Positions 33,001 to 36,000 of a stretch of DNA of 64,000 nt are shown one piece after another. The stretch comes from a virus (lineage: Duplodnaviria; Heunggongvirae; Uroviricota; Caudoviricetes). Position 1 is the first letter of the stretch. Each line of letters starts with the position of its first letter. The stretch lies in IMG/VR virus record IMGVR_UViG_2703718787_000017. The stretch is one strand, 5' to 3'. Position numbers: made by a program.

Positions 33001-36000
33001 CCGTAGGTCGAGTGAGTACGGGATTTGTAATGGAAACCAAACAGTTGCAGTGGGAAGGTTCTACGTTCAGGGGAGTCCCAGCCTTCAAAGGTAGAGGCAT
33101 AAACTGGCAGTGGGCTTATCACTTCATCTTTTTCCAGTTCCCAGGTACGGGCAATTTCCGCCAGCTTGCTGGAATAAATTTCAATCTTACCGGAAGGTGT
33201 TTTAAGTGGATTTGCCTCGGGGTCGTCACGAAATGCTTTGTAGGCGACAAAATGACCATTGGGATCTTTACGCTTATAGATACCCATTTTTTTCAGTTCG
33301 TCGTAAGACGGTAACGCCGGATCTTTGGCAAGCATTTTGGCGTACAGATGTTGTAACCATTGTTCCTGCGTGCGACCTTCAGTGAACTTTTGATAGACGT
33401 CAGGTCCAAGACGTTTCGCGACTTCACTCAGGATCCAGTAAATCGGTTTGCGTTCGAATTTTTCGCTGGTGACAGGCTGGAGGAAAATGAGATATCCCAT
33501 GTTACCGGCGTAGTCGTTAGGAATAATATCTTCCTGCTCAACGGTCATCAGGTCTGGCAGCAGAATGTCGGCATATTTTGCCGATGAGGTCATAAAGTTT
33601 TCGATGACCACAATCATTTCGCATTTCGATTCGTCCTGCAGAATTTCATGCGTTTTGTTGATGTCAGAATGCTGATTAACGAGGGTATTTCCCGCGTAGT
33701 TCCAGATGAACTCCATTGTCAGACGGATGGATGGACTTGAAGTAGTTGACTCAATGCTACTTAAGGTCCTGATATGACTGACATTAACCATGATAATACT
33801 GTATGTCCATCCAGTTCTTTCTCTGGGTCTCCCTATCTGTATCAGCAAGTCTGCACCTCAAGTCCTGACACAAGGCTGACACAAATCAATATACTCAGCG
33901 TAGCTAAGCCTCAGTTAGTCCGTAGAGCCAATGGTCGATATACTATCCGCTTCAGACTCAAGGGACAGACCATCCCGTTTCTTTCAGTATCGACCCGAAG
34001 CACAGACAGGAGAGTAGCCACAATGCGTCAGAGAGAGCTTGCAGCCACAGCTAAGACATTCCTACTAGACAAGCCTGAAGTTTCGCTACAGGAGCTTACA
34101 GAGCACCTCCGGTCTATGGCTGAGCAGTTCCTGACAGACGCCAGTGATGACTACTGGAATGGACTTGAGGTCGCTACTCTGGTGGACGAGAAGTCCAACC
34201 TGAAGGAGCTAGCCGCTACGCAAGCCTTGAGTCTGGACCAGCAGAAGGGCATAAGGTTAGCGCTTGAAGTCCTGACCGCAGCACAGCAGAGGGTAGACAC
34301 TGGTGATGCCTCTGGTCTGATTAAGCTGATTGATGATAATAACCATACTGATTACTCAACTATAGGCGACTATACGTCCATTCTGAAGAATGAGCAGGGG
34401 GATAGACCAGCAGTTTTCACACAGGTTACTGCTCCTTGCAGTCACAGCGAGCGTCAGCCATCTGTGGTTTTTTCAAGCCTAGTGTCCTCGCTGCTGGCTG
34501 AGAAGGTCCAGACCCTGAAGTCCTCCAGCTACAAGGACCTGTCGTCCTCACTGAATACCGTCTCTCGGTTCTTACCTGAAGACATGGACCTGATGTCCCG
34601 CTCTGAGTGGCTGGCTGTCAGGGACTCTATGCTTGCTTCTGAGGTGAGACCATCGACAATCAACAAGCTGCTGACCAAAGCGAAGATGTGTCTCGATTAT
34701 GGCCTGATGAATGGGCAACTTGAGGGCCGCAACCCTATTGAACGGATGAAGCTGACCAAGGATATCGACTCCAAGCGCAGAGCGTTCACAGACGAGGAGC
34801 TGGATGGACTTCTTGTCCGGGTAGAGGCTGAGTATCAGTTCACACGACATACCGCTCACACGACCTCTGAGGCTCGCAGGTGGGCGACTCTGGTCTCTGT
34901 GGTCACTGGCGCTCGGTCTGCTGAGGTCTGCCACCTGACTAAACGTGACATTGTAACCTTGGACAATGGACTGGTCTGTATCGACATCAATGAAGATGGG
35001 GGCGGGAAGTCCGTAAAGAACAAGCATTCAGTCCGACTTGTACCGCTGACCGATGGCGCTTATGGGTTTGACCTGAAGTCCTTCCTCGAATGGGTAGACA
35101 TGCAGCCTGACGAGGGTCCTCTCTTCGGGATGACTCCAAGCGCATACTCTAGCTGGTTTAACTCAAGGGTCCTCACAGAGGCTCTCCCAGACGCTGAGAA
35201 CGTCTCTCTACACAGTCTGAGACATTGGCTGGCGACCCGGATGAAAGAGCGTGGAGTCAATCTGGTGGACGCTCAGGGCATCTTAGGTCACAGCAGTCAG
35301 TCCATTACGTATGACCTGTACGGGAAAGGACATGCAGTTGGTAGGCTGGCTGATGTGCTGAAGACAGCTTTACTTTAAGTAGGAAGACCCAAGGTGTAGA
35401 CCATATACGGCTTGATGGTTGAACCTTGGGTCGCTGAAGTCTGACTGAAGTTAGGGAGGGTGATAATAATCATAATCCCTCCTGACTATAGGCCCACTGG
35501 TTCGCCTTCGGCTGTCCGACTCTAAGTCTGTATGTGGTCTTATTTAAACTGGTTCCCTAACTCCAGTACTCCAAATTCCTATGGTCTCCTCTTGACATTC
35601 CTGTTTAACTGTGAGTCGCCTCTGGTCTCTCTTTATATATACTTCCTTAATTCCTGAGGCGTCTTTAGTCCTTGACATTCGGTCCAACCTGTGAGTCACA
35701 TCCGGTCCTCCCTCTATATATATACTTCCTTAATTCCTAGGGTCGCCTTAATCCTTGACATCCAGTCCAACCTGTGAGTCACATCCTGTCGCTAGCAAGC
35801 TAGCTGTCGCGCTACTGTATGCATCACCAGTGGTGGACTTGATTATCACTATAGGGGAACCAACTAATTCAACTACAGGAGATACTCTATGGCACGACCA
35901 ATCGCAACTCACGACAACACGTTCACCAAAGCCTACTTGCAGCAGCACTGCGGGGACCTGCTGTCATTCGATGGTCAGGGCGACCTGAGTGGTTGGCTGG

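What the first reader, a model, noticed from the sequence alone, without database searches (positions are those of the whole stretch)
33740..33890. Arm-type repeats and a second 12-bp direct repeat near both ends of the element
Seen: CTGACACAA occurs twice at 33865-33884 and three times at 40207-40237; TTGACTCAATGC occurs at 33746-33757 and 40243-40254, each ~40 bp inside the 15-bp cores. This is the pattern expected for integrase arm/core binding sites of a functional attL/attR pair, suggesting the element can still excise. The left set overlaps the annotated 5' end of the integrase ORF, so the true int start is probably downstream of 33774.
Basis: seen in the sequence. Interest (0 to 1): 0.45.

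Follow-up and report, generated by a model that had tools for sequence, protein, structure and literature searches.

The report
Integrase arm sites of ynfE element
The short repeats at both ends of a 6.6-kb mobile element inserted in the E. coli ynfE gene are very probably the "arm" docking sites of the element's own integrase, an ordinary lambda-style arrangement in an unstudied integrase family, with the oddity that two of the sites lie inside the integrase gene itself.

Summary
The repeats are real and non-random, but the 9-mer CTGACACAA occurs twice, not three times, on the right. The true unit is the 8-mer TGACACAA (3 right, 2 left). The 12-mer TTGACTCAATGC contains a one-mismatch copy (TGACTCAA), giving 7 same-strand sites within about 275 bp of a reconstructed attP. 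The element (33698-40309) is bounded by a 15-bp core, AGTT-CCAGATG-AACT. Joining the flanks gives an intact ynfE that is 100% identical to many E. coli genomes. About 150 of 5426 complete E. coli genomes carry diverged relatives at the same site. The sites are conserved even where neighbouring DNA is unrelated. Distant integrase relatives (35-41% identity) with other cores show the same layout. The 35%-identity Pseudomonas phages use a different 8-mer, TGTTAGAA. The integrase has a conserved N-terminal beta3-alpha domain (Pfam DUF6538 in relatives), the likely arm binder, but a fold search did not link it to lambda Int. This is a new member of a known kind. Binding and excision remain untested.

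The parts
33698..33712 (+). Left (attL) copy of the 15-bp core AGTTCCAGATGAACT. Inferred anatomy: AGTT (33698-33701), 7-bp overlap CCAGATG (33702-33708), AACT (33709-33712).
   Evidence: Exact direct repeat with 6597-bp spacing (D14). In 8 of 12 relatives the left copy has G at position 12 while the right copy keeps the host A, so strand exchange lies left of position 12. Kluyvera L013 shows the same pattern at position 14. The 7-bp overlap itself is an inference.
40295..40309 (+). Right (attR) copy of the 15-bp core.
   Evidence: Joining 33500-33712 to 40310-40520 gives intact ynfE at 100% identity.
33746..33757 (+). P'1: the 12-mer TTGACTCAATGC, which contains TGACTCAA, a one-mismatch variant of the arm motif. 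It lies 33 bp inside the left core.
   Evidence: TTGACTCAA is invariant and the 12-mer varies at a single position (T to C at position 10) in 6 of the 16 loci examined.
33866..33873 (+). P'2: arm-type repeat TGACACAA, inside int codons 31-34.
   Evidence: Invariant in all 16 related loci, including Kluyvera. Diversity pi is 0.014 over 33864-33887, against 0.30 immediately downstream.
33877..33884 (+). P'3: arm-type repeat TGACACAA, 11 bp after P'2, inside int codons 35-37.
   Evidence: Same calls as P'2. Synonymous divergence of codons 1-37 is 0.079, against 0.20-0.31 in the rest of int.
40207..40214 (+). P1: arm-type repeat TGACACAA, preceded by A rather than C.
40218..40225 (+). P2: arm-type repeat TGACACAA, 11 bp after P1.
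   Evidence: This copy is TGGCACAA in some relatives.
40230..40237 (+). P3: arm-type repeat TGACACAA, 12 bp after P2.
40243..40254 (+). P4: the 12-mer TTGACTCAATGC (TGACTCAA), 14 bp after P3 and 40 bp before the right core.
   Evidence: It is TTGACTTAATGC in three relatives.
40281..40296 (.). Perfect inverted repeat CTTCAAG-TC-CTTGAAG abutting the core. Its left part, CTTCAAGTCC, is the reverse complement of GGACTTGAAG at 33733-33742. Candidate extended core-type or accessory-factor sites.
   Evidence: Read directly. Conserved in all relatives except L004. Function is inferred only.
33733..33742 (.). GGACTTGAAG, the inverted partner of 40281-40290, lying 21 bp inside the left core.
   Evidence: Conserved in all relatives.
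33774..35378 (+). int: a 534-aa tyrosine integrase with catalytic R381, H480, R483, H506 and Y516 present. Residues 1-42 form a disordered tail encoded by the P' arm.
   Evidence: Pfam PF00589 E=1.7e-13. PHROG 1 integrase E=1.3e-41. Catalytic motifs found.
33900..34136 (+). Coding region for the N-terminal beta-beta-beta-helix-helix domain (aa 43-121), the candidate arm-binding domain.
32682..33712 (-). C-terminal fragment of the interrupted ynfE gene.
   Evidence: ORF list. RefSeq annotation of relatives.
40295..41705 (-). N-terminal fragment of the interrupted ynfE gene.
   Evidence: The intact allele was found.

Best explanation
The repeats are the arm-type binding sites of a lambda-style attP that is split between the two ends of an integrated 6597-bp element.

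Shown:
- The element sits precisely between two copies of a 15-bp core in ynfE.
- Seven same-strand copies of TGAC(A/T)CAA lie within 88 bp (P arm: three tandem copies at 11-12 bp spacing plus one) and 172 bp (P' arm: one plus two tandem copies at 11 bp) of the core.
- The sites are conserved in diverged relatives.
- The same layout recurs in distant relatives of the integrase. The 35-36%-identity Pseudomonas-phage and L023/L032 lineages use a different 8-mer.
- The integrase carries a conserved extra N-terminal domain.

Inferred:
- That domain (aa 43-121, DUF6538-like) binds the arm repeats, while the C-terminal domains bind inverted AGTT/AACT core-type sites.
- The bridged arms form an intasome that exchanges strands across a 7-bp overlap, CCAGATG, with ynfE.
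- Excision needs both arms and probably an unidentified directionality factor.
- Because P'2 and P'3 lie in int codons 31-37 and the core is only 61 bp from the start codon, bound integrase probably also damps its own expression, as shown for IntS of KplE1.
For: - Exact positions and shuffle controls.
- Precise empty site.
- Diverged elements (int region 87-95% nucleotide identity) at the same site in 150 of 5426 complete E. coli genomes, and in Citrobacter, Kluyvera, Shigella and Leclercia.
- Motif copies are kept where the flanking arm DNA is unrelated (L004, Kluyvera L013), and copy number and a second motif (AGTCACAGCCAA) vary together on both arms.
- Arm density is 20.5 per kb against 0.33 per kb in interiors, with all arm copies on one strand.
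- The P' arm is nearly invariant (pi 0-0.05) up to 33887, then pi jumps to 0.30.
- Synonymous divergence of codons 1-37 is 2.6-3.9 times lower than in the rest of int.
- Same layout in distant relatives with other cores:
  - L019 (41% identity; core CAGCGACAACGTCAA; TGTCACAA-type repeats, 2 left and 3+1 right).
  - L022 (35% identity; core TGTCGCAGATTTGCC; AGTCACAA x3 in int codons 9-18 and GTCACAAG x2 near the right core).
  - L029 (core CTTCTGAGACGTC; TGATACAA x2 in the 5' ORF and four tandem copies, two of them TGATACAA, plus a TTGACT site on the right).
- A different motif accompanies a different N-domain. Pseudomonas T7-like phages have TGTTAGAA x3-4, plus 1, plus 2 inside int codons 13-20, giving 8 hits against 0.09 expected. 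L023 and L032 also have TGTTAGAA pairs.
- N-domain model and conservation.
- Precedent for autoregulation: PMC2951348.
Against: - No binding or recombination data exist.
- No IHF consensus lies in the arms, and no convincing promoter was found.
- No excisionase was recognised.
- No attP junction was found in viral or metagenome contigs.
- The P arm is only moderately conserved (pi 0.10-0.14).
- The relatives are not phylogenetically independent within the ynfE family.
- On a single arm, a generic repeat statistic is not significant.
Confidence: 0.75

Rival explanations
1. The tandem repeats are binding sites for a different element-encoded protein rather than for the integrase N-domain. Candidates are a recombination directionality factor or a transcriptional regulator of int.
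For: Excisionases typically bind tandem direct repeats spaced by one helical turn (general knowledge of lambda Xis, L5 gp36 and P2 Cox). The repeats always lie at the 5' end of int, a natural place for an operator. The N-domain could not be tied to known arm-binding folds.
Against: The same motif occurs on both sides of the core in every lineage where both ends are known, whereas directionality-factor sites normally occupy one arm. The motif tracks the integrase across elements with different cargo: T7-like phages, about 6.5-kb elements, and a 7.3-kb element with AIPR and resolvase genes. No shared small DNA-binding protein was identified.
Confidence: 0.13
2. The sites are genuine arm sites, but the element in this window is a fixed, non-excising remnant, so the attL/attR pair is a fossil.
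For: No attP junction was found in public contigs. No excisionase and no clear int promoter were found in the integrated state. Some relatives have a truncated int (L014 at 345 aa, L015 at 181 aa) or IS insertions.
Against: Here int is full length with its catalytic residues, both cores are identical, and all seven sites are intact. Many diverged variants occupy the same site in scattered lineages, which implies repeated integration. A 6601-bp NCBI contig of a relative breaks just short of both cores. A Logan contig of a related element ends k-1 bases past each core. Both patterns fit mixed junctions in the sequenced samples. A relative of the cargo module assembles as a circle.
Confidence: 0.1
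3. The repeats are chance or slippage products without function.
For: Short 8-9-mers can recur by chance. The generic single-arm statistic is not significant.
Against: Shuffle controls, strict strand bias and 60-fold enrichment, conservation against diverged flanks, and recurrence of the layout in relatives of 35-41% identity.
Confidence: 0.02

Closest known systems
Bacteriophage lambda attP with its heterobivalent Int (arm-type sites P1, P2, P'1-P'3; core-type sites C and C'; 7-bp overlap)
   Same: A tyrosine integrase with an extra N-terminal domain. An attP of about 275 bp. Tandem arm repeats at helical-turn spacing on both sides of a short core. Inverted core-type half-sites around a probable 7-bp overlap. 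int lies next to the P' arm.
   Different: The N-domain is DUF6538-like and was not linked to the lambda domain by sequence or fold search. All seven sites have one orientation. No IHF consensus or Xis was found. Two P' sites lie inside the int ORF. The target is the middle of a protein-coding gene, which is left broken.
KplE1 (CPS-53) IntS/TorI module of E. coli, where attL overlaps the intS promoter and IntS represses its own gene (PMC2951348)
   Same: int is adjacent to attL and is transcribed away from the junction. Arm sites lie in the int 5' region, so autoregulation is the expected consequence.
   Different: In KplE1 the sites overlap the -10 box upstream of the ATG. Here only 61 bp separate the core and the ATG, the tandem pair is in codons 31-37, and no promoter was located. 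Regulation is untested.
The ynfE-targeting integrative genetic elements catalogued by TIGER as a candidate case of 'regulated gene integrity' (Mageeney et al. 2020, PMC7192596)
   Same: The same target gene and the same type of event: disruption of a conserved domain without restoration, by a tight integrase clade.
   Different: In the parts of the paper I read, ynfE appears only in the abstract's list of targets. I found no description there of arm sites, core anatomy, the int start or the cargo.
SSV-type archaeal integrases, whose attP lies inside the int gene
   Same: attachment-site DNA overlaps the integrase coding sequence.
   Different: In SSV1 the core itself lies within int, so integration splits the gene (from my own knowledge). 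Here the core is upstream, int stays intact, and only arm sites are embedded.

Membership tests
Lambda-type (heterobivalent) tyrosine integrase / attP system | Tyrosine recombinase catalytic domain with the R..H-x-x-R..H..Y residues | tested here: met
   PF00589 E=1.7e-13. GAR381, HSLRH480-484, GHS505-507 and LYG515-517 are present.
Lambda-type (heterobivalent) tyrosine integrase / attP system | A separate N-terminal DNA-binding domain homologous or structurally equivalent to known arm-binding domains | tested here: inconclusive
Lambda-type (heterobivalent) tyrosine integrase / attP system | Repeated arm-type sites on both sides of the core, different in sequence from the core-type sites | tested here: met
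   Four sites at 40207-40251 and three at 33747-33884 with consensus TGAC(A/T)CAA, against core half-sites of the form ..AAGTT/AACT...
Lambda-type (heterobivalent) tyrosine integrase / attP system | Arm sites conserved in relatives and changing together with the integrase | tested here: met
   within the family. in relatives of 35-41% identity (TGTTAGAA, AGTCACAA and TGATACAA variants).
Lambda-type (heterobivalent) tyrosine integrase / attP system | Short attP/attB identity with inverted core-type sites around a 6-8-bp overlap | tested here: met
   The 15-bp identity AGTT-CCAGATG-AACT is internally palindromic. Left-copy polymorphisms place exchange left of position 12. The exact cleavage positions are inferred.
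Lambda-type (heterobivalent) tyrosine integrase / attP system | Physical binding of Int to arm sites, and their requirement for recombination | not testable with these tools
   Needs EMSA or footprinting and attP deletion assays.
Lambda-type (heterobivalent) tyrosine integrase / attP system | Accessory bending-protein sites (IHF) and a directionality factor | tested here: not met
   There is no WATCAANNNNTTR match in either arm. No Xis, AlpA or Cox family hit was found in Pfam, PHROGs or NCBIfam. Degenerate sites or novel factors are not excluded.
KplE1-type autoregulated integrase gene | int adjacent to attL and transcribed inward, with recombination sites overlapping its expression signals | tested here: inconclusive
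   The geometry is met (core 61 bp from the ATG, sites at -28 and +92 to +111), but no sigma-70 promoter was identified.
KplE1-type autoregulated integrase gene | Repression of int by its own product | not testable with these tools
   Needs a reporter fusion with and without Int.
Regulated-gene-integrity element at ynfE (TIGER) | Interrupts a conserved coding region without restoring it, at one position, in several independent elements | tested here: met
   ynfE is split into a fragment ending at 33712 and a fragment starting at 40295, with no restoring fragment. The same junction is found in all 16 loci examined, and element variants are diverged.
Regulated-gene-integrity element at ynfE (TIGER) | Reversible excision that restores the gene under some condition | not testable with these tools
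   Only indirect hints exist: contig breaks at the cores. No attP contig was found.

The most novel reading that the evidence does not exclude
DUF6538 is the arm-binding domain of a large, uncharacterised clade of tyrosine integrases. The representative search found 3681 homolog clusters at E<=1e-3, though only a subset align over the N-terminal domain.

In this clade the cognate P' arm sites are built into the 5' end of the int gene itself. The first 20-40 residues of the protein are then a by-product of the DNA sites. The stop codon hidden in the motif (TGA or TAG) limits the read-through pair to two helically phased copies. Integrase occupancy of its own 5' coding region would couple recombination to its own synthesis.

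The ynfE elements would then be one branch of a family of about 6.5-kb minimalist episomes or satellites (Int, variable AP2-HNH / KilA-N / Rha regulator, DUF6971, a 330-380-aa protein) that can circularise and reversibly switch ynfE.
Probability: 0.3. Interest if true: 0.55.

Novelty: new member of a known kind. Interest (0 to 1): 0.4.

Why it matters
- It gives a base-level attP/attB map (core, probable overlap, seven arm sites, true int start) for an integrative element present in about 3% of complete E. coli genomes and in other enterobacteria. The element inactivates a selenate/tellurate reductase gene. Excision and regulated-gene-integrity experiments become straightforward to design.
- It offers a testable function and a cognate DNA motif for a Pfam domain of unknown function (DUF6538) that heads many integrases. 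These include integrases of temperate T7-like Pseudomonas phages.
- It corrects a start-codon ambiguity that RefSeq annotation handles inconsistently: two of the first three relatives are annotated from the internal Met84.
- The kind of system is textbook, so the conceptual surprise is modest.

Tried and rejected
- **Int start at Met84 (34023, good AGGAG Shine-Dalgarno).** Rejected by purifying selection on codons 46-83 and by conservation of that domain in distant homologs.
- **TTGACT of the 12-mer as a -35 box for int.** No acceptable -10 at 16-18 bp. The scan found only a weak site that would start transcription inside the ORF.
- **IHF sites.** No consensus match in the arms.
- **Direct evidence of excised circles.** The attP junction pattern gave 0 hits in viral contigs and in two metagenome scans. 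The two IMG/VR hits to the arm are integrated copies.
- **Identity of the cargo.** orf332, orf185, orf70 and orf122 have no significant Pfam, NCBIfam, PADLOC or PDB match, and orf332 has no phage tblastn hit. In PHROGs, orf122 matches an unknown-function family (phrog_23123, E=1.1e-8) and orf185 matches one weakly (E=0.0067). Rfam found nothing in the element.
- **Generic 'most repeated 8-mer' statistic per arm.** Too permissive. It was not significant except in the phage, so the argument rests on motif recurrence across arms and lineages.
- **Full-length AlphaFold model of Int.** Unusable (pLDDT 40) because the alignment was shallow.
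Full report
**1. The observation**

The sequence was read at both ends.
- CTGACACAA is exact at 33865 and 33876, as stated.
- On the right it is exact only at 40217 and 40229. The claimed third copy at 40206 begins with A.
- The repeated unit is therefore the 8-mer TGACACAA: three copies at 40207, 40218 and 40230, and two at 33866 and 33877.
- TTGACTCAATGC is exact at 33746 and 40243. It contains TGACTCAA, one mismatch from the 8-mer.
- Together there are seven copies of TGAC(A/T)CAA, all on the + strand.
- The 15-bp core AGTTCCAGATGAACT lies at 33698-33712 and 40295-40309, with a spacing of 6597 bp.

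Shuffle controls exclude chance. There are four 9-mer hits against 0.71 expected, and two 12-mer hits against 0.03 expected.

**2. The element and its empty site**

The DNA between the cores interrupts ynfE. ynfF lies downstream on the minus strand.

Joining 33500-33712 to 40310-40520 gives a sequence that is 424/424 identical to intact ynfE in many E. coli genomes. It is contiguous in 5108 of 5426 complete genomes.

The integrase region is present in 150 of 5426 complete E. coli genomes. Nucleotide identity is only 87-95%, far more diverged than the host backbone. All whole-element matches listed lie in ynfE. Relatives also occur in Citrobacter, Kluyvera, Shigella and Leclercia.

The TIGER survey lists ynfE among genes whose integrity may be regulated by such elements (PMC7192596).

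**3. Core anatomy**

The core is internally palindromic: AGTT-CCAGATG-AACT.
- In 8 of 12 relatives the left copy reads ...GATGGACT, while the right copy always keeps the host ...GATGAACT.
- In Kluyvera the two copies differ at position 14.
- The element-derived base appears only in the left copy, so strand exchange must lie left of position 12.
- This fits a 7-bp overlap CCAGATG flanked by inverted AGTT/AACT half-sites. The overlap is an inference.

**4. Conservation of the repeats**

I aligned 12 and then 16 loci.
- The pair TGACACAAggcTGACACAA on the left is invariant, including in Kluyvera.
- On the right the number of copies varies from 2 to 4, with variants TGGCACAA and AGACACAA.
- The copies persist where the surrounding arm DNA is unrelated (L004, L013).
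- A second motif, AGTCACAGCCAA, appears as an insertion in the left arm of L007 and in the right arm of L003 and L008.

Over 14 elements the motif density is 20.5 per kb in the arms against 0.33 per kb inside, and no arm copy lies on the minus strand.

Nucleotide diversity:

| Region | Coordinates | pi |
|---|---|---|
| P' arm | 33713-33887 | 0-0.05 |
| Just beyond the P' arm | 33888-33910 | 0.30 |
| P arm | 40206-40294 | 0.10-0.14 |
| Upstream of the P arm | 39965-40100 | 0.32 |

**5. The int start**

- The ORF from 33774 is open in 14 of 16 related loci. The two exceptions, L014 and L015, are truncated only downstream, at codons 345 and 181.
- All 20 aligned protein clusters begin with the same Met-Thr-Asp.
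- Three different indels just after codon 38 are all in frame.
- An in-frame TAA lies at 33762, and no ATG, GTG or TTG occurs between codons 1 and 84.
- Codons 46-83 show pS 0.216 and pN 0.043, so they are translated.
- Distant homologs align from query residue about 42-51, starting at their own residues 2-33.
- Codons 1-37 have pS of only 0.079, against 0.20-0.31 elsewhere. This points to an added DNA-level constraint.

P'2 and P'3 lie in codons 31-37 (PDTRLTQ). RefSeq is inconsistent here: two of the first three relatives are annotated from Met84.

**6. The integrase**

Its catalytic domain is a standard tyrosine recombinase.
- The full-length model is poor except for residues 43-120.
- The fragment 38-129 folds confidently (pLDDT 83) as three strands followed by two helices.
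- Residues 1-42 are predicted to be disordered.
- Of 18 family N-domains, 15 match Pfam DUF6538.

The resemblance to the lambda N-domain (three-stranded sheet plus helix) therefore remains a resemblance only.

**7. Distant relatives**

This is the strongest evidence.

| Locus | Int identity | Core | Repeats near int (P' side) | Repeats on the other arm (P side) |
|---|---|---|---|---|
| L019 (same gene order, 6482 bp) | 41% | CAGCGACAACGTCAA | TCACTCAATGC plus TGTCACAA/TGCCACAA at 11 bp | TGTCACAA, TGACACAT, TGATACAA plus a TTGACT site |
| L022 (7283 bp) | 35% | TGTCGCAGATTTGCC | AGTCACAA x3 at 11 bp, in int codons 9-18 | GTCACAAG x2, about 70 bp from the right core |
| L029 | not measured | CTTCTGAGACGTC | TGATACAA x2 in the 5' ORF | four tandem copies (GTGACACAA, CGCCACAA, GTGATACAA x2) plus a TTGACT site |
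| Pseudomonas T7-like phages 3MF5 and phTUNSm | 35% | not identified | TGTTAGAA x2 inside int codons 13-20 | TGTTAGAA x3-4 in tandem plus one |
| L023, L032 | 36-37% | other end not available | TGTTAGAA pairs in the int 5' tail | not available |
| L026 | 35% | not identified | three copies, 18-41 bp upstream of the ATG | not identified |

In phage 3MF5 the motif gives 8 hits in 4.6 kb against 0.09 expected.

Nine of eleven lineages examined show the pattern. P0149 does not, and L033 is unclear.

**8. A phase constraint (inference)**

TGACACAA, TGATACAA and TGTTAGAA each contain a stop codon in one frame. With 11-bp spacing, successive copies shift frame by two. Only two copies can therefore be read through. 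This matches two copies in the coding P' arm against three or four in the non-coding P arm.

**9. Mechanism**

The best reading is a heterobivalent integrase. Its DUF6538-like domain would dock on the arm repeats while its C-terminal domains act at the core. The arms are split between attL and attR in the integrated state. The geometry matches the KplE1 IntS case, where attL overlaps the int promoter and IntS represses itself (PMC2951348). Autoregulation is therefore a reasonable expectation, though no promoter was located.

**10. What remains open**

- No IHF consensus was found in the arms.
- No excisionase was recognised.
- No attP junction was found in public contigs.

Indirect hints of mobility:
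- An NCBI contig of a relative stops just short of both cores.
- A Logan unitig of a related element ends k-1 bases beyond each core.
- A cargo-related 6467-bp molecule assembles as a circle.

**11. Verdict**

The arm-site interpretation is well supported by comparative evidence. The start-codon inference is wrong. Excision competence is plausible but untested. The system is a new member of the lambda-type kind, in an integrase family with no characterised representative that I could find.

Noticed in passing
window 40166-40177: A run of 12 G, the only G or C homopolymer of 8 or more in the 64-kb window. It lies between the last element gene and the P arm. Relatives have 4 to 14 G at this position, so it is either a slippage-prone tract or a sequencing artefact.
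   Followed up: partly
window 35591-35790: Three tandem units of about 82 bp lie between int and the next gene. Each carries TTGACAT and GGTCCAACCTGTGAGTCAC. A similar GGTCCAACCCTGTGAG occurs in the distantly related circular element L030. This may be an origin, packaging or operator element.
   Followed up: partly
window 36771-37910 and relatives L003, L005, L006, L010, L011, L019: The middle gene is a swappable module. It is an AP2/HNH-like protein here and a KilA-N, Rha or HNH protein in relatives, while int and the two right-hand genes are kept.
   Followed up: partly
window 38187-39808; L019 8110-9790; L029; L030: A conserved pair ends these elements across genera: a coiled-coil DUF6971-like protein plus a 330-383-aa protein with no family, PDB or phage match. 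The order and sizes resemble a scaffold plus capsid pair, but this was not tested.
   Followed up: partly
L030 (JGI 3300012995 contig, 6590 bp): A 123-bp exact terminal overlap indicates a circular 6467-bp molecule. It carries the same cargo pair but has a serine recombinase in place of the tyrosine integrase.
   Followed up: partly
L016, L017, L018 (Pseudomonas phages vB_PsyP_3MF5, vB_PaeM-G11, phTUNSm): T7-like (Autographiviridae) phages carry an integrase of this family with the same arm-repeat layout. Two further TGTTAGAA copies lie in the terminal repeat of 3MF5 (L016 125-141).
   Followed up: partly
window 34004-34025: A strong AGGAG lies 9 nt before the internal Met84 of int, and RefSeq uses this start in some genomes. 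A shorter integrase lacking the N-domain could conceivably also be made.
   Followed up: no
L014 (Shigella flexneri) and L015 (Leclercia NCTC13032): In these relatives int is truncated (345 and 181 codons), although the arms and cores are intact. They appear to be decaying copies.
   Followed up: no
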